Below are positions 37,547-54,902 of a stretch of 64,000 bases of DNA, one piece after another. A model generated the notes under the pieces. That model was given only the letters and a program-made list of their open reading frames with translations. It did no database searches and had not been told where the DNA came from. The DNA is from a virus (taxonomy: Duplodnaviria > Heunggongvirae > Uroviricota > Caudoviricetes): IMG/VR virus record IMGVR_UViG_2609459792_000007; one strand, 5' to 3'. The first letter of the stretch is position 1; each line of letters starts with the position of its first letter. The position numbers and the translations under genes were made by a program.

Positions 37547-40500
37547 ATGTGGTACAGGGAAGGTACTATCACATTTACACAGGGTAGTAATACTCTGGTT
37601 GGGGTTGGGACAGCCTGGAACGTAACAGCTAATGGTGTGTTGCCGGGGATGATCGTCATTGGCCCCGACAATAAGCTGTATGAGATCAAGCGCGTAACAA
37701 GCGATACGAACATTGTTCTCTCAGAACCTTATACCGGTGAAACTCAGTCTGAAGTTCCGTGCCGAATCATTACTACCTATGAAGGCGACTTAACACAGTT
37801 TAGCGCGCGCTTTACCGCGCTAATGTCGCGTATGTCGGCTGATTCCAAGTCCATGCGTAGTTGGTTGACTGCTCTGGATGAGGTGACAATCGAGCGTGAA
37901 GACGGTACAGAAGTGACCGTTAAGCCGCTGATGCAGATCGTCAACGAGCACAACGAAAACGTTGAGTGGTATAAAAATAACACTGACGCGATTGATGCCG
38001 CTGGTGACAAAGCTCGTGAGGCGGCGGCCAGTGCTGCCGCAGCAGCAGAAAGCGCCAATACCGCTGGAGAAAAAGCATCTCAAGCGTCTCAAAGTGCATC
38101 CGCTGCGGCATCCTCACAAAGTGCCGCAAGTGCGAGTGCAACTGCTGCGAAAAAATCTGAAACGAACGCAGAATCAGCATATCTATCGGCAGCAGAATCA
38201 GCGTCTGTAGCGTCGACCAAAGCATCGGAGGCAGCAACATCTGCGTCCAGTGCCTCTGCATCTAAGGATGCAGCCAAAGCATCAGAGACTAACGCTTCAT
38301 CGAGTGCAAACGCGGCTGCATCATTTGCAACAGAAGCTGAAAATTCGTCTAAGGCAGCAAAAGCGTCAGAGACAAACGCAAAAGCATCTGAAACGGCAGC
38401 CGGGCAGAGTGCATCGTCTGCAAACAGTTCGAAATCTGCGGCAGAAGCGTCAGCAAGCGCAGCCTCAGCAAGTGCGGATAGTGCTTCATCAAGTGCAACT
38501 GCGGCAGGAAAATCTGCGGAAAGCGCGTCGTCATCAGCGACAACAGCTACCGCAAAAGCGACTGAGGCGACGAATCAGGCTACAGCTGCTAAAAATTCAG
38601 CATCGGCAGCAAAATCCTCTGAAACAAATGCAAAGGCTTCTGAAGATAATGCCGCTTCCTCTAAAGAGGCAGCTGCTGAATCTGCAAGTTCTGCGTCTGC
38701 ATCAGCCACCTCGGCATCTGCTTCAAAAGATGAGGCGACCAAGCAGGCATCAGCTGCGAAGGGGAGTGCTTCAACGGCATCCACGAAAGCAACAGAGGCG
38801 GCAGGTAGTGCGACGGCTGCATCTCAGAGCAAAGCTGCTGCTGAATCCGCTGCGACCCGTGCAGAAGCTGCCGCTGATCGTGCTGAAGAGATCGCCGGTG
38901 CAGTTGCGATGGAAGACGCAAGCCTTACCACCAAAGGTGTTGTGAAACTTAGCAGTGCTGTCGATAGCACCAGTGAATCGCTGGCCGCAACGCCAAAGGC
39001 AGTTAAAGCAGTCAATGACAATGCGAACAGCAGGGTGCCATCTAACCGAAAAATTAACGGGAAAGCACTGACTGCGGATATCACATTAACGCCGAAAGAT
39101 ATTGGTACTTTAAATTCAATAACGATGTCTTTCTCTGGCGGGGCCGGGTGGTTCAAACTGGCTACTGTTACAATGCCACAAGCGAGTTCCATCGTTTACA
39201 TCGCATTGATTGGTGGCGCTGGTTACAACGTCGGCTCCCCACATCAGGCAGGCATTTCAGAACTGGTTCTACGAGCAGGCAATGGAAACCCCAAAGGGAT
39301 TACAGGTGCTTTGTGGAAGCGTACAGCTGTCGGATTAACGAATTTCGCCTGGATCAACACATCCGGCGATACATATGATATTTACGTTGAAATTGGCAAT
39401 TATGCGACGAGTGTAAATATCCATTGGGATTGTACTGCAAATGCGTCAGTTTCTATTTATACATCGCCAACATATTCAGCGAGTAAGCCTTCCAGCGTTA
39501 CCGATGGTGTTGTTTATACGTTGTATAGCACACATCAGAAACCGACGCCGTTAGATATTGGAGCACTGCCAACAACCGGAGGAACAGTTTCAGGTCCGTT
39601 GTCTGTTACTGGTGGGATCACCGGAACATTAAATGGTAATGCAAGTACAGCAACGAAATTGCAGACGGCAAGATCTATCGGTGGAGTTGTTTTCGACGGT
39701 TCTGCAAATATTAACCTTCCAGGTGTAAACACTACGGGTAATCAGAACACCACTGGTAATGCTGCAACTGCTACAAAACTTCAGACGGCACGCACAATTG
39801 GCGGGGTAGCATTTGATGGCAGTGTCAATATCGACCTGCCGGGCGTGAATAAAGCAGGCAATCAGAGCACTACCGGCAATGCTGCAACCGCTACAAAACT
39901 ACAGACAGCGCGTACAATCAACGGTGTTAAGTTTGATGGTTCTGCGGACATAACGCTGACTCCTGCGAACCTTGACGTATACAGCAAAAGCGAAATAGAC
40001 AATAAAAAAGGGATGAGAAAATACACTTTTTCAGCGCCTGCAAATGCAGTAAGCGGTAAGTGGTATCCTATAGTCTTTCGCCGATCTGGAGGCAGTACCG
40101 ATGAATTAGCCTCACGAGTTGTGATAACTACTTATTCCTCAGCTGGCGGATACGCCATGAATAATTGTGAATTTAATGGGTTTGTTATGCCTGGCGGTTG
40201 GTCTGATCGCGGTTCATATGCGGCTGGTTTTTTCTCAATATATTCTACTGCTGAGCGAGCTATACACTCGATTATTTCAAGTGTGAAAGATGACGATTTG
40301 TGTAGTGTATTTTACGTTGAAGCCAGAGCATTCCCTATCAAGATATTTGCTGAGGAGGGCTTGAACGTAATTGTTCCAACGGCTGATTATGCAGTTGGTC
40401 AAACCACTTATAAGTGGGGGGCAACTGATCCTTTATCAGAAAGTACGAATGCACAGATAATTTTGGACTTTAAAAATGGACGAGGTTATTACTGTTCACA

Positions 40501-41704
40501 TCCATTTATTTCAAGTCTTTCAGGAAATGCTGCTACAGCAACGAAATTGCAGACTGCAAGAACTATCGGCGGCGTGGCCTTCGATGGATCTGCGAACATA
40601 AATTTGCCTGGTGTAAACACGGCAGGTAATCAGAATACAACGGGCAACGCGGCTACTGCTACGAAGTTGCAAACAGCGAGAAACATCAATGGTGTTAAGT
40701 TTGATGGCTCAGGCGATATCAACATTAATACATTGGTATCTCGTGGCCGAGTTACGGCGTTAAGCGGCTCTACTCAAGGCACTGCTGGCATTCAAATGTA
40801 CGAGGCGTACAACAATAGTTATCCGACCACGTATGGCAACGTATTGCACATGAAAGGTGCGAGTGCTGCTGGTGAGGGCGAGTTGCTTATTGGCTGGAGT
40901 GGTACGAGCGGTGCACATGCGCCGGTTTTCATTCGCTCCCGAAGAGATACCACTGATGCGGCATGGTCAGCGTGGGCGCAGGTATATACCGCTAAGGATT
41001 CAATCCCTGGTGTGAATACAACCGGTAATCAGAACACTACTGGTAATGCCGCAACCGCCACAAAATTGCAGACAGCAAGGAAAATTGCTGGTGTGGCGTT
41101 TGATGGCTCTGCCGATATTACTTTGACTGCGGCTAACCTTAATGCTTACACGAAAACAGAGGTAACAAACCTTCTAAGTTCCTATGCAAGCAGATCATCA
41201 CTGACAGGCTATAGTGGCAACCTGGATATTATTGCTGAAACACTGGTTGTCAAATCAGGCGGTAGTGGAGGGTTTGCTATATGGGATATTGGCACAACTA
41301 CTAGCGGTGCCAATATGTACATTGATCCAAACCCAGGTATCAATACAGTTTGGCGTTCAACATCTTCAAGGCGCTATAAAAAGGATATTGAAACATTACA
41401 AGATCGATATGCTGATGAACTTTTGTCATTAAGACCTGTTTGGTATCGTTCAATTTGTCGAGGTGACCGAAAGGATTGGGGGTATTACGGCCTTATTGCT
41501 GAAGAGGTTGGTGAGATTGCCCCGCAATATGTCCATTGGCGTGAACCAACAAATAATGATTCTCCAGAAGATATTTCCTCCAATGGTATGGTCGCTGAAG
41601 GAGTGATGTATGAACGTTTGGTTGTACCACTCATTCATCATATTCAGCAATTGACCAAAAGGGTTGAGGAGCTTGAAAAGAAGTTAAATTCACCTAAAGA
41701 ATAA
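37547..41704 (+). CDS. long tail fibre with C-terminal intramolecular chaperone (peptidase S74-like)
   Basis: 1385 aa; Ala/Ser-rich segment; repeats NTTGNQNTTGNAATATKLQTAR; C-terminus ...DWGYYGLIAEEVGEIAPQYV... typical of autoproteolytic chaperone domains. Confidence 0.8.
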   Translation: MWYREGTITFTQGSNTLVGVGTAWNVTANGVLPGMIVIGPDNKLYEIKRVTSDTNIVLSEPYTGETQSEVPCRIITTYEGDLTQFSARFTALMSRMSADSKSMRSWLTALDEVTIEREDGTEVTVKPLMQIVNEHNENVEWYKNNTDAIDAAGDKAREAAASAAAAAESANTAGEKASQASQSASAAASSQSAASASATAAKKSETNAESAYLSAAESASVASTKASEAATSASSASASKDAAKASETNASSSANAAASFATEAENSSKAAKASETNAKASETAAGQSASSANSSKSAAEASASAASASADSASSSATAAGKSAESASSSATTATAKATEATNQATAAKNSASAAKSSETNAKASEDNAASSKEAAAESASSASASATSASASKDEATKQASAAKGSASTASTKATEAAGSATAASQSKAAAESAATRAEAAADRAEEIAGAVAMEDASLTTKGVVKLSSAVDSTSESLAATPKAVKAVNDNANSRVPSNRKINGKALTADITLTPKDIGTLNSITMSFSGGAGWFKLATVTMPQASSIVYIALIGGAGYNVGSPHQAGISELVLRAGNGNPKGITGALWKRTAVGLTNFAWINTSGDTYDIYVEIGNYATSVNIHWDCTANASVSIYTSPTYSASKPSSVTDGVVYTLYSTHQKPTPLDIGALPTTGGTVSGPLSVTGGITGTLNGNASTATKLQTARSIGGVVFDGSANINLPGVNTTGNQNTTGNAATATKLQTARTIGGVAFDGSVNIDLPGVNKAGNQSTTGNAATATKLQTARTINGVKFDGSADITLTPANLDVYSKSEIDNKKGMRKYTFSAPANAVSGKWYPIVFRRSGGSTDELASRVVITTYSSAGGYAMNNCEFNGFVMPGGWSDRGSYAAGFFSIYSTAERAIHSIISSVKDDDLCSVFYVEARAFPIKIFAEEGLNVIVPTADYAVGQTTYKWGATDPLSESTNAQIILDFKNGRGYYCSHPFISSLSGNAATATKLQTARTIGGVAFDGSANINLPGVNTAGNQNTTGNAATATKLQTARNINGVKFDGSGDININTLVSRGRVTALSGSTQGTAGIQMYEAYNNSYPTTYGNVLHMKGASAAGEGELLIGWSGTSGAHAPVFIRSRRDTTDAAWSAWAQVYTAKDSIPGVNTTGNQNTTGNAATATKLQTARKIAGVAFDGSADITLTAANLNAYTKTEVTNLLSSYASRSSLTGYSGNLDIIAETLVVKSGGSGGFAIWDIGTTTSGANMYIDPNPGINTVWRSTSSRRYKKDIETLQDRYADELLSLRPVWYRSICRGDRKDWGYYGLIAEEVGEIAPQYVHWREPTNNDSPEDISSNGMVAEGVMYERLVVPLIHHIQQLTKRVEELEKKLNSPKE

Positions 41705-41764
41705 ACAACTTCAATCGGGGCTGGAACTAAACCAGCCCCTGCTTAAAAGTATAAGGATATATTT

Positions 41765-42019
41765 ATGAGCTATGGTGCACAGGTTTGGTCGCCATCAAGA
41801 CAGGAGATGGTCGATGCGTTGGCCCCTGTTTATTACCTCGATTATTTTACTCCCTCTGGTTCTGGAAGTAGAACATATGAGGTTGAGGCGGGATTGGGAA
41901 TCGACTATTACATAATGGACGTAACCAATGGGAAATACACAAGTCTTACGGTTTCTGGAAATACCATTTCATGGTCTGGAGCTAGTGGCAATTTAAACAT
42001 ATTGGTTTTTCAAAAATAA
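41765..42019 (+). CDS. hypothetical protein (84 aa)
   Basis: AT-rich ORF after fibre gene; RBS aaggatatatttATG. Confidence 0.5.
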   Translation: MSYGAQVWSPSRQEMVDALAPVYYLDYFTPSGSGSRTYEVEAGLGIDYYIMDVTNGKYTSLTVSGNTISWSGASGNLNILVFQK

Positions 42020-42627
42020 TGTACGGAAGCAAGATATATCGATCTGACGGGAAGGTCTGGATGTCTCCTTCTTTGTCTCCTATCGTTTTTCAGAGAAAGC
42101 AGGTTGTTTCTTTGTCTGGCGGGACAGAGTTTAACACCCAAATATCTCCAGATCGTTCACCGATGATTTTTGTTGCCTATTCGAAAGCTGTTTCATTAAT
42201 AGCCAACAGAATAGTGCGTAACAACCAGGTGATTTACAGTTTCGGAGGTCAGGGTAGCGACTCTAGTGCCACGATATACGTATTTTCGAAAGGTATAGCC
42301 AAAAAAGAAACTTGGGGCATGAGTTTTTTCAATGCGCGAGGAGAGGAGATCTATAATACGGCAAATATCCCACTTTCATTTACCTTTCTTAATAATACGG
42401 AGTGGAACAGTTCTGGAGGGCATGTTTTTGATTACCCGCCAGCGATAATCCCAACATATGCAAATGTGTTCGCGGTTCCAGTACCGGGCGGGGCCATGAC
42501 AATGGTTTATGGATATGCGGCATATGGAAATACTGTTAGTTCCATATTCGTAAACCAACTTAATGGCGGCCATAGTTTTAGCGTAAATGGCAGAGTACCG
42601 GTAATAAATAGAAATCTGTATAACTGA
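42019..42627 (+). CDS. hypothetical protein (202 aa)
   Basis: AT-rich ORF coupled to upstream gene. Confidence 0.5.
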   Translation: MYGSKIYRSDGKVWMSPSLSPIVFQRKQVVSLSGGTEFNTQISPDRSPMIFVAYSKAVSLIANRIVRNNQVIYSFGGQGSDSSATIYVFSKGIAKKETWGMSFFNARGEEIYNTANIPLSFTFLNNTEWNSSGGHVFDYPPAIIPTYANVFAVPVPGGAMTMVYGYAAYGNTVSSIFVNQLNGGHSFSVNGRVPVINRNLYN

Positions 42628-42637
42628 TGAGTAAACG

Positions 42638-42868
42638 ATGAAAAGATTATTTCTAACAATAGCTGTTGTTCTCTCTCTTACTGGCTGTCAGAAATTGCCG
42701 ACACCCATATGTTATGGTGAGGCTATCATTGGTGGACAGGAGACAGTCATACCTATATATGCTGTTAAAAAGGTTAACGGCTATACCTTATACAAAGCGG
42801 GTAGCATCTATAACTGGCGATGGGTTGGAGTAGGTGCTTTCTCATCAGTGCGTTGCAATGCTGAATGA
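42638..42868 (+). CDS. small lipoprotein
   Basis: MKRLFLTIAVVLSLTGC: signal peptide with lipobox LTGC. Confidence 0.6.
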   Translation: MKRLFLTIAVVLSLTGCQKLPTPICYGEAIIGGQETVIPIYAVKKVNGYTLYKAGSIYNWRWVGVGAFSSVRCNAE

Positions 42869-42888
42869 TAAGTAAGTACACACCTACA
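42864..42888. promoter_or_regulatory. family B motif GATAAGTAAGTAC
   Basis: Upstream of lysis genes; followed by TTGACT -35-like hexamer at 42925. Confidence 0.45.
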
Positions 42889-42949
42889 ACAAAAGGGTGA
42901 AATGTGATATAAATCCGCCATCCCGATTTGACTTTTCATGGAGGAAAAC

Positions 42950-43273
42950 ATGTCGAACGAGATGGCGGGCGTTACAACAGAGCAAGTTGAGCGTATTGCC
43001 GCGATCGTTGCTCGGGAGGTTGTTGGCAAATTAGGTAAAGAGCTACGTGAAGAAATTGGCCAGGAGGTCAATGATCAGCTGAAAACCTACTTTGGTGATA
43101 TGACCCCGGCGCAACATAGTATTCAACACTCCAATCTGGACAAACTCCTTAACCGGTTAGATTCCATCTCCAGTGGGTTCTTTGGCGGCATTGTTTCTAA
43201 AATAACGTCGTTCATTATTACCGCACTGCTTTTGGGGTTAGCCGCGTATGGCGTAAAAAATGGACTGCAATAA
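42950..43273 (+). CDS. putative holin-like membrane protein
   Basis: Single C-terminal hydrophobic helix (ITSFIITALLLGLAAYGV); first gene of lysis cluster; start uncertain (42938 or 42950). Confidence 0.4.
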   Translation: MSNEMAGVTTEQVERIAAIVAREVVGKLGKELREEIGQEVNDQLKTYFGDMTPAQHSIQHSNLDKLLNRLDSISSGFFGGIVSKITSFIITALLLGLAAYGVKNGLQ

Positions 43274-43286
43274 CAGGAGATCAAGG

Positions 43287-43979
43287 ATGAAGACTCCGAG
43301 AGGCATTCGTAATAATAACCCCGGTAATCTTGATAAAGGATCACCGTGGCAAGGTCTGGTTGCGAATCCAGACGAACCGCGTTTTTGCACGTTTAAAGAC
43401 CCTGTTTGGGGGATTCGTGCGCTGGCGGTGACTCTAATTACCTACCACGACAAACGTCGCGCAAAAGACGGCTCAAGTATCGATACCATTCGTGAAGTTA
43501 TTGAACGTTGGGCACCGCCGAATGAAAACAACACTGACGCCTACATTAATGAGGTGTCTAAAGCCGTTGGTGTAACCGCAGACATGATCATCGATCTGCA
43601 TGATTACGACATCCTTCGACCTTTGGTTGAGGCAATCATTCGCCACGAGAATGGCCGGGGTCCGCTAAAAACGCTGAACACCTGGTATGCGGCAGAAGTT
43701 ATTGAGGAAGGTCTGCGTCGAGCTGGCGTTGTTAAGCCGGTGAAAACCGTGAAGGCTGTTCCTGTAACTAAAGAAACAGCAGGCGCAACTGTTACAGCAG
43801 GTATTGGTCTGGCGCAACTGGCCGATGTTATGCCGCAGGTTTCCGCTGCTATGGATAAGGCACAAGGCCATATCTCTAGCGGGGATACAGTACGCATCAT
43901 CTTCGGTATTGCCACTATTGTTGTGGCCGGATTCATTGCCTGGTCGCAGGTAAGAAAACACCAGAAAGGGATGGTCTAA
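43287..43979 (+). CDS. putative endolysin with C-terminal membrane anchor
   Basis: ATG 43287 with RBS caggaga; position between holin-like and spanin genes; C-terminal hydrophobic helix; catalytic class not assignable. Confidence 0.45.
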   Translation: MKTPRGIRNNNPGNLDKGSPWQGLVANPDEPRFCTFKDPVWGIRALAVTLITYHDKRRAKDGSSIDTIREVIERWAPPNENNTDAYINEVSKAVGVTADMIIDLHDYDILRPLVEAIIRHENGRGPLKTLNTWYAAEVIEEGLRRAGVVKPVKTVKAVPVTKETAGATVTAGIGLAQLADVMPQVSAAMDKAQGHISSGDTVRIIFGIATIVVAGFIAWSQVRKHQKGMV

Positions 43980-43980
43980 T

Positions 43981-44232
43981 ATGCTAGGCAGCCTGATGAC
44001 AAAGCTAAAAGTTGCTTTGATTACGCTGGCTGCCGTTCTTTTCGTTCTGGTCGGCGCTTACACGATGGGCGGGAATGCAGCACGACGAGCAATGGAAGAG
44101 AAGGCAAAACAGGAAGACAGAAAACGACTTCAAAGCACAGTGGACGTCAAAAATGAAACACTTGATGAGTTACGGCGCAAGGATGCTTCTTCTGTTCATC
44201 ATGAGTTGCACAATAAGTGGTTGCGTGATTAA
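43981..44232 (+). CDS. i-spanin (Rz-like)
   Basis: N-terminal TM helix then charged periplasmic region. Confidence 0.6.
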   Translation: MLGSLMTKLKVALITLAAVLFVLVGAYTMGGNAARRAMEEKAKQEDRKRLQSTVDVKNETLDELRRKDASSVHHELHNKWLRD

Positions 44233-44383
44233 GCCTCAACCCGCTGGTGTGCTTTTCTGCGATGCGGCTACACCGCTATACATCAGCCGTGATGATCTCA
44301 TGACCGAAGAGACTGAAAGAGAGGTGCTTTTTCACAATATGATAGGGGAGCGATTGTGTGGATGGGGCAGAAAAGTACCATAA
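44153..44383 (+). CDS. o-spanin (Rz1-like lipoprotein), overlapping i-spanin in another frame
   Basis: MKHLMSYGARMLLLFIMSCTISGC lipobox; begins inside i-spanin gene. Confidence 0.55.
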   Translation: MKHLMSYGARMLLLFIMSCTISGCVIKPQPAGVLFCDAATPLYISRDDLMTEETEREVLFHNMIGERLCGWGRKVP

Positions 44384-44560
44384 CAGAAGAGGAGTTTTCT
44401 AACATAAAATTTGCATATTATTAGAGCACAAGGTAGATTTGGCACATGGATGTCAAGTAAATCATCCCTTGCATTAATGCTGCGACGCATACTCGTAGCC
44501 TCTAAACCCTGACAAGGGTCGCCGCTATGACATTAAGTTAATACCGGCTAAGGTGGACAC

Positions 44561-44944
44561 ATGCTGAACGAAAAACGTTCTATACAAACAATTCGCGATT
44601 GCACGAGTGTTATCGCAACTCATGTGCTGAATAAGCGCAAACTTGAGGTGCGTAAACTTAACAACGATGCGACTGCGCCAAAAGACACTCGCTTCATCGT
44701 AACTTTCAAAGACGATGTTGAGAATGCTGGTGCCAGTGTAAAACCGTTGGCTGAAGCGATTTTCCTGAACGATCGTGTTCGTTTCATTGTGAAGCCAGCA
44801 AAACAATACCCTGAATTAGCACGGTTTAGTGACCAATTCTCTGAAATTATTGAGAGTGCAATTCGCCGCTTTCTTAATACTCATGGTAGCATTGTCAGCA
44901 ATACAACTGCTGATGGTACTGCTCTAAGATGGCACCTACACTAG
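44561..44944 (+). CDS. hypothetical protein
   Basis: ORF with RBS aaggtggacacATG. Confidence 0.5.
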   Translation: MLNEKRSIQTIRDCTSVIATHVLNKRKLEVRKLNNDATAPKDTRFIVTFKDDVENAGASVKPLAEAIFLNDRVRFIVKPAKQYPELARFSDQFSEIIESAIRRFLNTHGSIVSNTTADGTALRWHLH

Positions 44945-45681
44945 AACGCACATACTCTAAAAATCTTTATGAGTTTCCTCACCGTGGGGAAACTCGCGTT
45001 TCACGTTTTGGCTACCTCATCAACGAAGCATCGCTTTTCAAAATATCTGAAATAACCATTATCGAGCCTGATGATGATATCTGTCTGTATATCCTGATGG
45101 AGAAAGTTGGAGCACGAGATCAGGGTGAACTGATGGACTTCATTCTGGACAGAGGCGAAGATGGAATGTCTGATTCGGACATTATTCAAGCAATTCTGCG
45201 TTCCGACATGCTCGATCAGAGCAGAAACACGATAGCAGGCAGAATTGCATTGCGTGAATACACATTCATCGAGGATGGGGTAGAGATTGACTGCTATCAG
45301 ATTGCAGGTGTTGAAACAGAAAGAGCAATAAGGCAAAGGGGACTGTGCAACCTCACGTATCGCTTCCTCCTTCATTGGTACGAACATCTTGTCTGTGATT
45401 ACAATCAGACCATTCCTGGCGCAAAAATCTGGGCCGGTCCATTAATGCGAACAGGTGATGTAAGAATTTACAACGCAAAAACTGAGACGTTCGAGGATGT
45501 GTTAGGCGAATATGGGATGGGAAAAGAAACCGGCTTTTTGCCGTGGAACAGAGGATTGTTACTTGATCCAGAATTAAGCTCTTGGTTTCCAAATAAGGTG
45601 CAAGTTAACGTTGAGAAATTTATCGTACTTATCATCTCCCGCAAAACAAGAACCCCAGTTGGTTTATATCTAAAAGATTAA
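44929..45681 (+). CDS. hypothetical protein (250 aa)
   Basis: ORF followed by terminator. Confidence 0.55.
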   Translation: MAPTLERTYSKNLYEFPHRGETRVSRFGYLINEASLFKISEITIIEPDDDICLYILMEKVGARDQGELMDFILDRGEDGMSDSDIIQAILRSDMLDQSRNTIAGRIALREYTFIEDGVEIDCYQIAGVETERAIRQRGLCNLTYRFLLHWYEHLVCDYNQTIPGAKIWAGPLMRTGDVRIYNAKTETFEDVLGEYGMGKETGFLPWNRGLLLDPELSSWFPNKVQVNVEKFIVLIISRKTRTPVGLYLKD

Positions 45682-45857: not shown

Positions 45858-46526
45858 ATGACCAAGATCTTTGTGGTTGGCGGCACAAAGGGCGGGCCTG
45901 GCAAATCCACCGTTGCCCAGCAAATTGCCGTTTGCCTGAAAGTCAAAAAGAAGAAGAAGGTTTATATCACTGATATAGATATTCAGCGCACGACAACAAG
46001 CTGGTGTGAAGACCGTCGACAGAACGAAGACCTTGAGCTGATTCCTTTTGCATACGTTCAGGATGACATCATTAAGCACCTAAAATCGCTTCAGGGTAGA
46101 GCTGAGTTTGTAGTGGTAGATGCTGGTGGCTTTGACTCCGAAATTCAGCGACAAGCGATGCTGATGGCCGACGTTATCATTATCCCGCTTCGTCCTAAGC
46201 GTCGTGATTTGAAATCTCTGCGTGACATCGATCCTATTATCGACAATGTTCGTAATGTAAACGATAAAGTGAAGGTCCGCGCGGTCATGAACCAGTGCCC
46301 GGCTTTGCCATCACAAGTGTCTCGCATTCTGGCGGCTAAAGAGATTGTCGAGACGTTTGGCATCGAGTCTGCGCCAGTCAATCTATATAACCGCAACGTC
46401 TACGATGATGCGGAAGAGTCAGGTCGTTCTATCTTTGAAATGACCGGTAGCGAGCGCGACAAAAAGGCGGAAGCCGAGTTTGAAGAATTTGTAGATTATC
46501 TGTTGAGTCTGGAGGAAGAAGAATAA
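45858..46526 (+). CDS. ParA/MinD-family partition ATPase (small type)
   Basis: Deviant Walker A GGTKGGPGKST; about 220 aa. Confidence 0.8.
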   Translation: MTKIFVVGGTKGGPGKSTVAQQIAVCLKVKKKKKVYITDIDIQRTTTSWCEDRRQNEDLELIPFAYVQDDIIKHLKSLQGRAEFVVVDAGGFDSEIQRQAMLMADVIIIPLRPKRRDLKSLRDIDPIIDNVRNVNDKVKVRAVMNQCPALPSQVSRILAAKEIVETFGIESAPVNLYNRNVYDDAEESGRSIFEMTGSERDKKAEAEFEEFVDYLLSLEEEE

Positions 46527-52772: not shown

Positions 52773-54091
52773 AAAAGTTGATCGCACTTAAGCATAAGCT
52801 GGACGAAATGAAAGCTATGGGAACCAATGCAAAAAAAGAGGCATTGGCCAACATGGATGACTTTGAACAAAGCATGGTTTCATTGATGCTCAACCCTTTC
52901 ATCCGTTTTGGGGTAAAGAAATACAAAGTGGCAGAGCCGCTTAGTGAGTCCGTCCCAAGTGACGAAAAAGCCATTGATGTACTGAATAAGCTGGCCTCTC
53001 GCGAGCTGACGGGGAACGCAGCAATAGTTGCTGTTGAGTCTATCGTAGCGTCAATGTGCGCCGATGGGCAGGACGTGTTCCGTCGTTTCCTCTTAAAAGA
53101 CCCGAAAGCAGGTGTTGGGATTAGCCTATGCAACAAGGTTTTTGAGAATCCCATTCCGAAATTCGAGGTGCAGCTGGCGTCACCGTATAAAGAAAAAGGC
53201 GACAAATACCCCTTCAAGCCAAATCCTAAAGCAAAATGGCCGATGATTGGCAGTCTTAAGCTCGATGGTTTGCGAGTAATTTGCGAGGTTATTGTTGACG
53301 AGGAAGAGGTTAACTTCCTTTCTCGTACTGGTAATCCAATCACGTCTCTCGATCACCTAAAGCCAGCAATGCTCGAATTAGGCAAACTTTCAGGCCACAA
53401 ACACATCTTCTTCGATGGTGAAGGAACAGCCGGTTCATTTAACCAGTCCGTATCTGCATTGCGCAAAAAGAACGTGCAGGCAATTGGCGCTATTTATCAT
53501 GTTTTCGACTTCTTCCTACCGGAATGGCGGGCACAGGCTAAATCCAAAGAGTATGCAAAGACAGGTATGAAGCTGAAAGAGCGCCTGGCTATGCTGGTGG
53601 CGTTGTTCAAAAACGATCGCAGTGAAGGCTACGGACAAGACATTCACCTGCATCCGTTCTATATCATCCATAGCCACGAAGATTTCATCGAACGCTTTAT
53701 GAAACGCCTGGACGATAACGAAGAAGGGGAGATGGGCAAAGATCCGAACTCTGTTTACGAGTTTAAACGTACCCGCAGCTGGTGGAAGTTAAAAGACGAA
53801 GATTCAGAAGATGGTGAAATTATCGACTTTGAGCCGGGCGACCCGGACTCTGGTTTTGCCAACACACTTGGAAAAATTGTTATTCGTCTTGAAAACGGCG
53901 TCATCGTTCGTGCGAGCGGCATTAAGCATAAATATCTGGACGAGATCTGGAACAACAAAGAGAAGTACCGTGGTCGTATTGTTGAGGTTCATTGTCACGA
54001 GAAAACGCCGGATGGCAGCTTACGCCACCCACGACTGAAATGGCCGCGTTGCTTACGCGATACAGAAGATCGAATCGGAGATAAAGAATGA
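52769..54091 (+). CDS. ATP-dependent DNA ligase
   Basis: Adenylation motif KLDGLR (SLKLDGLRVICEV) and downstream nucleotidyltransferase-like motifs. Confidence 0.8.
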   Translation: MKKLIALKHKLDEMKAMGTNAKKEALANMDDFEQSMVSLMLNPFIRFGVKKYKVAEPLSESVPSDEKAIDVLNKLASRELTGNAAIVAVESIVASMCADGQDVFRRFLLKDPKAGVGISLCNKVFENPIPKFEVQLASPYKEKGDKYPFKPNPKAKWPMIGSLKLDGLRVICEVIVDEEEVNFLSRTGNPITSLDHLKPAMLELGKLSGHKHIFFDGEGTAGSFNQSVSALRKKNVQAIGAIYHVFDFFLPEWRAQAKSKEYAKTGMKLKERLAMLVALFKNDRSEGYGQDIHLHPFYIIHSHEDFIERFMKRLDDNEEGEMGKDPNSVYEFKRTRSWWKLKDEDSEDGEIIDFEPGDPDSGFANTLGKIVIRLENGVIVRASGIKHKYLDEIWNNKEKYRGRIVEVHCHEKTPDGSLRHPRLKWPRCLRDTEDRIGDKE

Positions 54092-54267
54092 TGCTCGGCT
54101 GGATGATTGCATTTTTAGCGGTTGGTTTTTTAATCGGTATTGTGGTGATGTCCAGTTGCATCAATGACTACATTAAAAGCGGTGTTATAGAACGACGCGG
54201 TCGTATTTATCGCATTGTAGAAATAACCCACACAGTGAAGGAGATTAAGGATGATCGTATTAAGTAA
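54088..54267 (+). CDS. small membrane protein (59 aa), not in ORF track
   Basis: ATGA overlap with ligase stop; N-terminal TM helix; C-terminal RIYRIVEIT resembles the ORF at 54463. Confidence 0.35.
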   Translation: MMLGWMIAFLAVGFLIGIVVMSSCINDYIKSGVIERRGRIYRIVEITHTVKEIKDDRIK

Positions 54268-54466
54268 GCGGGAGAAGGAAACGCTTCATGAAATCAGTAA
54301 GTGGCCGGAGTTCCCTGAGTACTGGAAGCCTAAAACGCGGGCTAAGTTAGAGCGGTTAGGGTTGGTTGCAAACGTTTCTGAAACGTGGTGTTCGGCCAAC
54401 TACCAGTTAACTGATAAAGGGAAAGTATTGCTACAGCAATTAGTAGAATCAGGAGCGTTAAAATGA
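54251..54466 (+). CDS. hypothetical protein (71 aa)
   Basis: ORF with RBS gaaggag. Confidence 0.45.
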   Translation: MIVLSKREKETLHEISKWPEFPEYWKPKTRAKLERLGLVANVSETWCSANYQLTDKGKVLLQQLVESGALK

Positions 54467-54615
54467 TTCCATACATCTCATTAGCTTTTATGGGTGGCTT
54501 CCTTATTGGCTTCGGCATCTGTCGTGATTTAATTAAGCAGGAACTTAAAACCAAAACACTGTGCATCGGAAAGCGTGTGTATCGGGTAGTTCATGAAACA
54601 AAGGTTAGAAAATGA
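54463..54615 (+). CDS. small membrane protein (50 aa), paralogue-like, not in ORF track
   Basis: RBS aggagcg; starts with the ATGATTCCATACATC word; TM helix then RVYRVVHET. Confidence 0.35.
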   Translation: MIPYISLAFMGGFLIGFGICRDLIKQELKTKTLCIGKRVYRVVHETKVRK

Positions 54616-54902
54616 GCAATTTAACTTCTTGGGACTGGTGGTTGGTCACCTATTTCTTAGCGGCTGGAGTAGCATTCGCCTTTTACGTAGGTCAGTTAGT
54701 CGTAAAACTGTTGCTGATTAAATTTGCTAGTCATAAACGTATCGATGATGGTCTGTGGCGTCTTGGCACCTTGGTGGAAACTCGCTACGGGCAACTTAAG
54801 GAGAACGAAACCATTACTATCCAAGCGAAACGATTCACTGCCACCATCACAAGAACACCTAGTCGTAGAGTGGCCTTGATCAAAAAAGTCACAACCGAAT
54901 AA
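54612..54902 (+). CDS. membrane protein (96 aa)
   Basis: N-terminal TM helix WWLVTYFLAAGVAFAFYV. Confidence 0.45.
   Translation: MSNLTSWDWWLVTYFLAAGVAFAFYVGQLVVKLLLIKFASHKRIDDGLWRLGTLVETRYGQLKENETITIQAKRFTATITRTPSRRVALIKKVTTE

What the first reader, a model, noticed from the sequence alone, without database searches (positions are those of the whole stretch)
42950..44383. Lysis cassette with embedded o-spanin and an endolysin candidate bearing a C-terminal membrane helix
The Rz1-like lipoprotein gene starts inside the Rz-like gene in another frame, the classic embedded arrangement. The putative lysin has no catalytic motif I can assign from sequence and ends in a hydrophobic helix, which is unusual for endolysins.
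Basis: partly seen in the sequence, partly recalled or inferred. Interest (0 to 1): 0.4.

Follow-up and report, generated by a model that had tools for sequence, protein, structure and literature searches.

The report
Known membrane-anchored phage endolysin cassette
This is the ordinary four-gene host-lysis cassette of an SSU5-type phage-plasmid; its cell-wall enzyme belongs to an already described but mechanistically unsolved class (Enc34/M4Lys type) that carries a membrane anchor at its tail end, and its two outer-membrane "spanin" genes overlap rather than being nested.

Summary
The four + strand genes exist at 42950-44383. They are a 107-aa protein with a C-terminal transmembrane domain (TMD), a 230-aa lysin, an 83-aa Rz and a 76-aa Rz1 lipoprotein.

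The window is an SSU5-like phage-plasmid: 94-95% DNA identity to phages Cyrano and PhiR41_1, 82% to SSU5. Those records already annotate these genes as holin, endolysin and spanins.

The lysin has no Pfam or NCBIfam hit, but its N-terminal domain matches the solved Enc34 endolysin catalytic domain (PDB 7q47, E=1.5e-54, model TM-score 0.83). The catalytic Glu/Trp/Tyr are invariant. The C-terminal membrane domain is the published hallmark of this class (Siskin, M4Lys, Enc34).

One correction: Rz1 starts inside Rz (+1 frame, 80-nt overlap) but runs 151 nt past the Rz stop. That is the overlapped (P2-type) architecture, not the embedded (lambda-type) one.

New here, all computational:
- The ~70-aa C-terminal module is a conserved, portable unit also fused to GH24, Hydrolase_2 and M15 lytic domains.
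- Its charge pattern looks like a procoat-type hairpin.
- Unrelated ~100-aa proteins with an extreme C-terminal TMD recur beside such lysins.

How the enzyme reaches the cell wall remains unknown. Verdict: real, already known, modest interest.

The parts
42950..43273 (+). Putative holin or lysis regulator. 107 aa, with a helical, acidic N-terminal ~80 aa and a single TMD at the extreme C-terminus (about residues 86-102, followed only by KNGLQ). Its function has not been tested.
   Evidence: ORF and Shine-Dalgarno site. phrog_5093 'unknown function', E=8e-69. No Pfam or NCBIfam family. Annotated 'putative holin' by position in SSU5 and Cyrano. The family is restricted to SSU5-like plasmids: 30 proteins and 12 phage records. 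No similarity to Chi gp37. The AF2 model is uninformative (pLDDT 47).
43287..43979 (+). Endolysin of the Enc34/M4Lys type, 230 aa: an N-terminal PHA02564-family muralytic domain joined to a C-terminal membrane module.
   Evidence: PDB 7q47 E=1.5e-54. AF2 model against 7q47: TM-score 0.83. phrog_873 'endolysin', E=6e-89. 55% identity to Chi gp38 over the full length.
43287..43766 (+). Enzymatically active domain (residues ~1-160), with catalytic Glu121 (IIRHENG), Trp75 (ERWAPP) and Tyr86.
   Evidence: Aligned residue by residue to the Enc34 catalytic domain. E121, W75 and Y86 are invariant in 60 homologues. pLDDT is above 90 over residues 40-150. The roles of the residues come from PMC8943055.
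43749..43976 (+). Portable C-terminal membrane module (residues 155-230), made of five parts: a basic linker with an invariant P-V-T-K-E-T motif; a weakly hydrophobic Gly/Ala/Ser/Thr-rich segment (164-181); an acidic loop with an S-S-G motif; a TMD (203-221); and a basic tail.
   Evidence: Conserved in sequence across 120 homologues. Charge pattern +2.0 / seg1 / -1.6 / TMD / +2.3, averaged over 59 sequences. A profile search of 1.84 billion proteins found only 32 hits, including fusions to GH24, Hydrolase_2 and M15 domains. The module aligns to the C-terminus of AP1 LysAP (hhalign 89%).
43981..44232 (+). i-spanin (Rz-like). 83 aa, with an N-terminal TMD and a 54-aa charged periplasmic part ending in KWLRD.
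   Evidence: phrog_1026 'Rz-like spanin', E=2e-23. TMD. 80% identity to SSU5 gp28. Short Rz proteins of the same type (75-95 aa) sit next to homologous lysins in many lineages.
44153..44383 (+). o-spanin (Rz1-like) lipoprotein precursor, 76 aa. Lipobox Cys24 is at 44222-44224; the mature protein is 53 aa with 3 Cys. The gene is in the +1 frame relative to Rz, overlaps it by 80 nt and extends 151 nt beyond the Rz stop, so the architecture is overlapped.
   Evidence: phrog_1275, E=1.3e-22. 49% identity to the Chi gp40 o-spanin, with conserved cysteines. Architecture computed. Kongari et al. place the SSU5 o-spanin in the Chi family (PMC6139136).

Best explanation
IDENTITY (about 0.95). This is the late lysis cassette of an SSU5-like phage-plasmid. 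It has four parts:
1. A small single-pass membrane protein, which is a holin or regulator candidate.
2. An Enc34/M4Lys-type endolysin.
3. A short i-spanin.
4. An o-spanin lipoprotein gene in the overlapped architecture.

The endolysin's N-terminal domain is a lysozyme-alpha-lobe-like glycosidase with a catalytic Glu. In the homologue M4Lys it was measured as an N-acetylglucosaminidase. After the wall is degraded, the Rz-Rz1 complex disrupts the outer membrane.

MECHANISM (inferred, about 0.4).
- The conserved ~70-aa C-terminal module inserts post-translationally and independently of Sec. It forms a procoat-like helical hairpin: basic linker inside, weakly hydrophobic first segment, acidic loop outside, TMD, basic tail inside.
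- This parks the enzyme at the cytoplasmic face of the inner membrane, where it is harmless.
- At a critical level the membrane module permeabilises the membrane locally and gives the tethered enzyme access to the murein. The timing is set by the upstream tail-anchored protein, whose bulk is also cytoplasmic.

Shown in homologues: the enzyme activity, the requirement for the TMD, and lysis without a holin. Inferred here: the topology, the insertion route and the role of the partner.
For: Identity:
- DNA is 94-95% identical to Cyrano and PhiR41_1 and 82% to SSU5, with the same four genes.
- The lysin matches 7q47 (E=1.5e-54; model TM-score 0.83).
- Catalytic E121, W75 and Y86 are invariant.
- The spanins hit phrog_1026 and phrog_1275 and resemble the Chi spanins.

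Experiments on homologues:
- The Enc34 catalytic domain lyses outer-membrane-permeabilised cells, and the full-length protein is toxic (PMC8943055).
- Full-length M4Lys alone lyses E. coli. Azide does not block this, deleting the TMD abolishes it, and the upstream gene is not needed (PMC7143992).

Hairpin topology:
- Over 59 homologues the net charge is +2.0 in the linker, -1.6 in the ~21-residue loop and +2.3 in the tail. Segment 1 is 62% Gly/Ala/Ser/Thr.
- This agrees with the N-in/C-in prediction for Siskin (PMC6498227).
- It resembles M13 procoat, which is YidC-dependent and Sec-independent (my own background knowledge, not tested here).

The module as a self-contained functional unit:
- Its sequence is conserved, not only its hydrophobicity.
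- It is fused to four different lytic domains.

The partner:
- Small proteins with an extreme C-terminal TMD are enriched directly upstream of such lysins: 8 of 29 loci against 8 of 168 background ORFs, Fisher p=5e-4.
- These fall into at least four sequence-unrelated families. They also occur in the GH24 and M15 cassettes.
Against: - The catalytically dead mutant E15A of AP1 LysAP, which carries the same type of module, neither slowed growth nor released beta-galactosidase (PMC8879335). The module alone is therefore not a lethal hole-former, at least there.
- In that system 10 mM azide delayed lysis, and the authors favour export of the enzyme (a 'C-terminal SAR' model).
- For M4Lys, Phobius and Phyre2 predicted N-out/C-in, and only TMHMM called the first segment a TMD (PMC7143992).
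- Segment 1 is only weakly hydrophobic (mean KD 1.06) and carries a conserved acidic residue.
- AF2 gives segment 1 no confident helix (pLDDT below 50 for residues 159-180).
- Many loci have no membrane protein upstream of the lysin (16 of 35 representatives; the ORF picking was crude).
- Nothing has been tested on the SSU5-type proteins themselves.
Confidence: 0.45

Rival explanations
1. C-terminally anchored, SAR-like endolysin. The catalytic domain is exported to the periplasm and held at the inner membrane by the C-terminal TMD (N-out/C-in). The upstream small protein acts as a pinholin. Depolarisation of the membrane activates or releases the enzyme.
For: - Full-length M4Lys, Enc34 ORF39 and LysAP lyse or poison E. 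coli without a holin. This needs the TMD and, for LysAP, the catalytic Glu. HolAP accelerates lysis and interacts with LysAP in a two-hybrid assay (PMC7143992, PMC8943055, PMC8879335).
- Phobius and Phyre2 gave N-out/C-in for M4Lys.
- The basic C-terminal tail (+2.3) fits C-in.
- The non-toxic E15A mutant implies that the enzyme reaches the wall without gross membrane holes.
- A single-TMD partner could form pinholes.
Against: - No known pathway exports a ~200-residue N-terminal hydrophilic region using a C-terminal anchor; the Enc34 authors say so themselves.
- M4Lys lysis was not blocked by azide.
- The TMD here is strongly hydrophobic (KD maximum 2.07, rich in Ile/Val/Phe). This is unlike the Gly/Ala-rich SAR domains that slip out of the bilayer.
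- The basic linker (+2.0) and acidic loop would lie on the 'wrong' side of the membrane.
- The bulk of the partner protein is predicted to be cytoplasmic, away from a periplasmic enzyme.
Confidence: 0.3
2. Canonical holin-endolysin system. The 107-aa upstream protein is a true large-hole holin of a new topological type. The lysin's C-terminal domain merely concentrates the cytoplasmic enzyme at the membrane. The holin-independent lysis seen in homologues is an over-expression artefact.
For: - The gene order is the classic holin-endolysin-Rz/Rz1.
- The TMD and juxtamembrane region are the most conserved part of the 107-aa protein.
- The Enc34 authors note that holin-independent lysis may be a side effect of strong promoters.
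- HolAP enhances lysis.
Against: - In BSPM4 the soluble truncated lysin plus the upstream gene gave no lysis, and the upstream gene alone was harmless. HolAP alone was also not lethal.
- The 107-aa protein matches no holin family and lacks the charged C-terminal tail typical of holins.
- Several related cassettes have no membrane protein upstream at all, for example in Pasteurella and Spirabiliibacterium.
Confidence: 0.15
3. The 230-aa protein is a virion-associated (entry) lysin or structural protein rather than the endolysin.
For: - The same catalytic domain is embedded in large virion, ejection and tape-measure proteins: phrog_7182, phrog_2276, phrog_992; PDB 9vvp Gp29 core protein; T7-like internal virion proteins.
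- NCBI named the family 'virion protein' (PHA02564).
- The gene lies just after the tail-fibre region.
Against: - The protein is small and membrane-anchored. It sits between a holin candidate and the spanins, as in Chi, Enc34 and BSPM4, where it causes lysis from within.
- 182 phage records carry this full-length form, and the listed ones (14 chi-like and related siphophage records) are annotated endolysin, lysis protein A or hypothetical protein.
- No other endolysin candidate was seen in the 64-kb window. This rests on a scan of the ORFs, not on an exhaustive search.
Confidence: 0.03

Closest known systems
Enc34 ORF39 endolysin (PDB 7q47; Cernooka et al. 2022, PMC8943055)
   Same: - Same PHA02564 catalytic domain (59% identity, E=1.5e-54, model TM-score 0.83).
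- Same catalytic Glu/Trp/Tyr.
- Same C-terminal two-segment membrane domain.
- Same position, followed by an overlapped Rz/Rz1 pair.
   Different: - The host element is an SSU5-type phage-plasmid, not a chi-like siphovirus. The paper thought the architecture was limited to Chivirus and its relatives.
- The upstream partner differs: here it has a C-terminal TMD, whereas Enc34 ORF38 has an N-terminal TMD with a dual start.
- The protein in this window has not been tested.
M4Lys of Salmonella phage BSPM4, Chi gp38 and the Siskin endolysin (PMC7143992, PMC6498227)
   Same: - 55% identity to Chi gp38 over the full length, including the C-terminal module.
- The same four-gene cassette.
- M4Lys supplies the functional data: glucosaminidase activity, and TMD-dependent lysis that needs no holin and is insensitive to azide.
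   Different: - The putative holin of chi-like phages (gp37/ORF_37; predicted N-out/C-in, 'class IV') is unrelated in sequence to the 107-aa protein here and is a mirror image of it in layout.
- The i-spanins are barely similar (27% identity, E=0.01).
LysAP/HolAP of Acidovorax phage AP1 (PMC8879335)
   Same: - A C-terminal membrane module of the same type, colinear over 70 residues (hmmsearch p=1.6e-7, hhalign 89%).
- The TMD is required for lysis.
- An adjacent single-TMD partner is present.
   Different: - The catalytic domain is GH24 T4-type lysozyme (PF00959), unrelated to the one here.
- No spanins are annotated next to it.
- The partner has a central or N-terminal TMD.
SAR endolysins with pinholins (P1 Lyz, phage 21 R21/S21 68)
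   Same: - A membrane-tethered muralytic enzyme that can lyse without a canonical holin.
- The Gly/Ala/Ser/Thr-rich first segment of the module, plus a TMD and a basic tail, recalls the two-TMD layout of the S21 68 pinholin.
   Different: - The anchor is at the C-terminus, not the N-terminus, so co-translational Sec export cannot apply.
- The TMD is strongly hydrophobic.
- There is no sequence relationship.
P2 LysB/LysC and the Chi-family spanins (overlapped two-component spanins; PMC6139136)
   Same: - The o-spanin gene starts inside the i-spanin gene in the +1 frame and extends beyond it.
- There is a lipobox with a non-Asp +2 residue.
- Kongari et al. group the SSU5 o-spanin with those of Chi and Enc34.
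   Different: - Both proteins are very short (83 aa; 53 aa mature) compared with lambda Rz (153 aa). The lambda length is from my own knowledge.
- The mature o-spanin is not proline-rich (7.5% Pro) and has three cysteines.

Membership tests
Enc34/M4Lys-type endolysin (PHA02564 catalytic domain + C-terminal TMD) | Sequence homology of the N-terminal domain to the Enc34 ORF39 catalytic domain | tested here: met
   phmmer against PDB 7q47: E=1.5e-54, residues 10-160 aligned. phrog_873 'endolysin', E=6e-89.
Enc34/M4Lys-type endolysin (PHA02564 catalytic domain + C-terminal TMD) | All-helical, lysozyme-alpha-lobe-like fold | tested here: met
   The AF2 model (pLDDT above 90 over the domain) has 7q47 as its top Foldseek hit: E=5e-16, target TM-score 0.83.
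Enc34/M4Lys-type endolysin (PHA02564 catalytic domain + C-terminal TMD) | Catalytic Glu (Enc34 E131) with conserved Trp79 and Tyr95 | tested here: met
   The equivalents E121, W75 and Y86 align to the Enc34 residues and are invariant in a 60-sequence alignment.
Enc34/M4Lys-type endolysin (PHA02564 catalytic domain + C-terminal TMD) | C-terminal membrane domain (proximal weakly hydrophobic helix + distal TMD + basic tail) and no N-terminal signal | tested here: met
   Hydropathy. Conserved in 120 homologues. AF2 places a helix at residues 199-226. Charge pattern.
Enc34/M4Lys-type endolysin (PHA02564 catalytic domain + C-terminal TMD) | Muralytic activity, and TMD-dependent lysis from within | not testable with these tools
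   Shown only for the homologues Enc34 ORF39 and M4Lys (PMC8943055, PMC7143992).
Two-component spanin, embedded architecture (lambda Rz/Rz1) | The o-spanin gene lies entirely within the i-spanin gene | tested here: not met
   Rz1 (44153-44383) ends 151 nt after the Rz stop at 44232.
Two-component spanin, overlapped architecture (P2 and Chi type) | The o-spanin gene starts inside the i-spanin gene in another frame and extends beyond it | tested here: met
   +1 frame and 80-nt overlap. Definition from PMC6139136. The same arrangement occurs in SSU5, Chi and in Pasteurellaceae, Alcaligenaceae and alphaproteobacterial relatives.
Two-component spanin, overlapped architecture (P2 and Chi type) | i-spanin with an N-terminal TMD; o-spanin with an SPII signal, a lipobox Cys and a non-Asp +2 residue | tested here: met
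   The Rz TMD has a KD maximum of 2.38. Rz1 has TISG|C followed by Val. phrog_1026 and phrog_1275.
Holins (classes I-III and curated holin families) | Homology to a described holin family | tested here: not met
   No Pfam or NCBIfam hit. phrog_5093 is 'unknown function'. No similarity to Chi gp37 or to HolAP.
Holins (classes I-III and curated holin families) | Small membrane protein encoded next to the endolysin, with a TMD and a charged hydrophilic C-terminal tail | tested here: inconclusive
   The protein is small, adjacent to the lysin and has one TMD. However, the TMD is at the extreme C-terminus and only KNGLQ follows it, so the hydrophilic domain is N-terminal.
Holins (classes I-III and curated holin families) | Lethal, timed hole formation in the inner membrane | not testable with these tools
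   No experiment exists for this family. The non-homologous partners ORF_37 and HolAP were not lethal on their own.
SAR endolysins | N-terminal signal-anchor-release domain | tested here: not met
   The N-terminus MKTPRGIRNNNPGN is hydrophilic, and no hydrophobic window occurs before residue ~200.

The most novel reading that the evidence does not exclude
The ~70-aa C-terminal module may be a portable, self-inserting lysis device that evolution has attached to at least four unrelated cell-wall hydrolase domains (PHA02564, GH24, Hydrolase_2, M15). Its layout is a basic linker with PVTKET, a SAR-like segment, an acidic SSG loop, a TMD and a basic tail.

It may work together with a recurrent, sequence-diverse class of ~100-aa tail-anchored proteins, including DUF6127 and the 107-aa protein here. 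These would be regulators rather than holins.

If so, this would be a distinct route of phage lysis, alongside holin-endolysin, pinholin-SAR-endolysin and Mu-type releasin systems. The endolysin itself would carry the membrane-breaching or translocation function.
Probability: 0.3. Interest if true: 0.65.

Novelty: already known. Interest (0 to 1): 0.3.

Why it matters
Its main value is a correct label (Enc34/M4Lys-type endolysin, overlapped spanins) for SSU5-like phage-plasmids. These plasmids are common in Enterobacterales and sometimes carry resistance genes.

The class itself still matters. How an enzyme with only a C-terminal anchor reaches the cell wall is an open question in phage lysis, and such self-sufficient lysins have been used in engineered lysis circuits.

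- The membrane module is a separable unit shared by several enzyme types.
- It carries a procoat-like charge signature.
- Tail-anchored small proteins are its recurrent neighbours.

Tried and rejected
- Pfam and NCBIfam scans of the four proteins gave nothing usable. Only PHROGs and the PDB sequence search were informative.
- The C-terminal module matched no holin family in PHROGs. It hit only its own phrog_873, plus a weak 'membrane protein' hit.
- The AF2 model of the 107-aa protein had pLDDT 47 and was not used for fold search.
- AF2 of the lysin gave no confident structure for the linker and segment 1, so it could not decide between a hairpin and a single span.
- hhalign among the partner families A-D and the Chi type found no convincing homology. 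The best was A against D at 25% probability, so I treat them as analogous, not homologous.
- The viral-contig scan with the module profile returned only near-identical SSU5-like loci and added no diversity.
- The promoter/terminator scan of 41600-45000 found fewer sites than shuffled sequence, so no transcription-unit claim is made.
- I looked for a free-standing copy of the module, as a holin-like small protein. The only candidate, P0177 (79 aa), turned out to be the tail of an M15 lysin interrupted by an in-frame stop.
- I looked for other holin candidates in the window. Three small TMD proteins at 54088-54902 belong to PHROGs of unknown function and lie far from the cassette.
- The upstream-neighbour survey used crude longest-ORF calling. 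Some 'noTM' calls are mis-picked ORFs, so the 8/29 figure is approximate.
Full report
**What is there.**
On the + strand, 42950-44383 holds four tightly packed genes.

| Gene | Coordinates | Product | Key features |
|---|---|---|---|
| 1 | 42950-43273 | 107 aa | GGAGG Shine-Dalgarno; single TMD at the extreme C-terminus |
| 2 | 43287-43979 | 230 aa | AGGAG Shine-Dalgarno; lysin |
| 3 | 43981-44232 | 83 aa | N-terminal TMD |
| 4 | 44153-44383 | 76 aa | signal peptide + lipobox TISG\|C; mature 53 aa, three Cys, +2 = Val |

The longer ORFs listed mechanically (42938, 43260, 44075) have no ribosome-binding support. They also do not match the gene lengths annotated in relatives.

**Source element.**
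Region 42600-44600 is 95% identical to Escherichia phage PhiR41_1, 94% to phage Cyrano and 82% to Salmonella phage SSU5.
- ParA lies at 45858. A Cor-type lipoprotein and tail-fibre genes lie upstream.
- The window is therefore an SSU5-like phage-plasmid.
- SSU5 and Cyrano already annotate these genes as putative holin, endolysin, Rz and Rz1.

**The endolysin.**
Other evidence is clear.
- A search of PDB sequences hits the Enc34 endolysin catalytic domain, 7q47, at E=1.5e-54 over residues 10-160.
- PHROGs gives phrog_873 'endolysin' at 6e-89.
- An AlphaFold model built on 59 homologues is confident over the domain. Its top structural match is 7q47 (target TM-score 0.83, 59% identity).
- Cernooka et al. 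(PMC8943055) showed that this domain (family PHA02564) degrades Gram-negative murein. It resembles the alpha-lobe of lysozyme and uses Glu131, with Trp79 and Tyr95.
- The equivalents here (E121, W75, Y86) are invariant in a 60-sequence alignment.
- For the chi-like homologue M4Lys, mass spectrometry indicated N-acetylglucosaminidase activity (PMC7143992). The window protein is 55% identical to Chi gp38 over its full length.

**The C-terminal helix.**
It is real: KD maximum 2.07 over residues 203-221, an AF2 helix at 199-226, and the tail RKHQKGMV. It is also the known hallmark of this class.
- It was shown to be essential for the holin-independent, azide-insensitive lysis caused by M4Lys.
- It was discussed as unexplained for Enc34.
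- tblastn finds 793 phage records carrying the catalytic domain. Of these, 182 have the full-length TMD-bearing form.
- In the rest, the domain sits inside virion or ejection proteins, for example PDB 9vvp Gp29 and T7-like internal virion proteins. This is why NCBI called the family 'virion protein'.

**The spanins.**
Rz and Rz1 hit phrog_1026 and phrog_1275. Rz1 is 49% identical to the Chi gp40 o-spanin, with the lipobox and cysteines conserved.
- Rz1 starts 172 nt into Rz in the +1 frame, overlaps it by 80 nt and continues 151 nt past the Rz stop.
- By the standard definition (PMC6139136) this is the overlapped architecture, as in P2, Chi and Enc34.
- Kongari et al. already list SSU5. Its i-spanin is a singleton in the list that precedes the separated class, and its o-spanin is in the Chi family.
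- The same short Rz (75-95 aa) plus overlapped Rz1 (68-92 nt overlap) accompanies homologous lysins from Enterobacterales to Alphaproteobacteria.

**The holin candidate.**
The 107-aa protein is phrog_5093, 'unknown function'.
- It matches no holin family.
- It is confined to SSU5-like plasmids: 30 proteins and 12 phage records.
- It is unrelated to Chi gp37 and to AP1 HolAP.
- Its TMD and juxtamembrane region are its most conserved part.
- Its 'holin' label rests on position only. In BSPM4 the non-homologous upstream gene was neither lethal nor needed for lysis.

1. The last ~75 residues are conserved in sequence, not just in hydrophobicity. Conserved residues include P159, T161, A167, G174, Q177, A188 and Q221, plus an SSG motif.
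2. Averaged over 59 homologues, the charges run +2.0 (linker), then a Gly/Ala/Ser/Thr-rich weakly hydrophobic segment, then -1.6 (a 21-residue loop), then the TMD, then +2.3 (tail). This is the signature of an N-in/C-in hairpin, reminiscent of M13 procoat.
3. A profile of the module was searched against 1.84 billion representative proteins. It returned only 32 hits. Most carry the PHA02564 domain. Some carry GH24 Phage_lysozyme (P0178, P0181, P0182) or Hydrolase_2 (P0173).
4. One is a Peptidase_M15_4 enzyme interrupted by an in-frame stop.
5. The C-terminus of AP1 LysAP, a GH24 enzyme whose C-terminal TMD has been characterised (PMC8879335), aligns colinearly with the module (hhalign 89%).
6. 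No free-standing copy of the module was found.

Among 35 non-redundant loci from bacterial genomes, the gene directly upstream of the lysin is often a ~90-110-aa protein with one TMD at the extreme C-terminus.
- The count is 8 of 29 loci against 8 of 168 background ORFs (Fisher p=5e-4).
- These proteins fall into at least four families with no detectable mutual homology. One is Pfam DUF6127.
- Similar proteins sit downstream of the spanins in the GH24 and M15 cassettes.
- Other loci have an N-terminal-TMD protein (Chi type) or no membrane protein at all.
- The ORF calling for this survey was crude, so the numbers are indicative only.

**Mechanism.**
The experimental record on homologues is mixed.
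- M4Lys lysis is insensitive to azide, and its TMD alone is bacteriostatic.
- The LysAP E15A mutant is harmless, and azide delays LysAP lysis.

I rank the models as follows:
1. Hairpin, with the enzyme parked at the cytoplasmic face: about 0.4-0.45. The charge pattern supports it and it offers a plausible Sec-independent insertion route.
2. Exported, SAR-like tethered enzyme with a pinholin partner: about 0.3.
3. Canonical new-type holin: about 0.15.
4. Virion protein: about 0.03.

None of these can be settled by computation.

**Verdict.**
- The cassette and the unusual endolysin class are already described and annotated.
- The export problem and the portable module with its tail-anchored neighbours give the class residual interest.

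Noticed in passing
window 37547-41704 (+): The 1385-aa tail-fibre ORF has a long Ala/Ser-rich low-complexity stretch. It also has about seven copies of a 'GNAATATKLQTAR.I.GV.FDGS' motif, ahead of a distinct C-terminal region.
   Followed up: no
window 41765-42868 (+): Three small genes lie between the tail fibre and the lysis cassette: phrog_557 'outer membrane protein', phrog_425 'membrane associated protein' and a Cor-type superinfection-exclusion lipoprotein (phrog_1119). SSU5 has all three. Cyrano lacks them, and PhiR41_1 has different genes there.
   Followed up: partly
window 44561-45681 (+): Two conserved ORFs of unknown function (phrog_2594, phrog_3307) follow the cassette. In phage Cyrano the same position holds a KacT-type acetyltransferase toxin and its antitoxin on the opposite strand. 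This looks like a variable slot between the lysis genes and parA.
   Followed up: no
window 54088-54902 (+): Three small conserved single-TMD proteins (59, 50 and 96 aa; phrog_4381, phrog_6302, phrog_4507; all of unknown function). The first two look paralogous (TMD followed by G.R.YR.VE/HE). They lie far from the lysis cassette and are not annotated as holins.
   Followed up: partly
L009, L014, L015 (Xenorhabdus and Morganella SSU5-like plasmids), downstream of the lysin: These relatives keep the 107-aa partner and the lysin, but no Rz was detected directly after the lysin. L014 has an Rz1-like lipoprotein about 250 nt downstream with no Rz detected. The spanin genes may be relocated or lost.
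   Followed up: no
L171 417-1076; L174 2388-3823: Metagenomic cassettes in which the same C-terminal module is fused to a Peptidase_M15_4 domain (interrupted by an in-frame stop) or to a GH24 lysozyme. Both have the short Rz (L174 also an Rz1-like lipoprotein), plus a 68-74-aa protein with an extreme C-terminal TMD placed after the spanins instead of before the lysin.
   Followed up: partly
P0001 and P0006 (protein database; homologues of window 43287-43979): 289-aa variants are identical or near-identical to the lysin up to the TMD, then read on into an unrelated basic tail. They are probably frameshifted or mis-assembled copies running into the Rz region.
   Followed up: no
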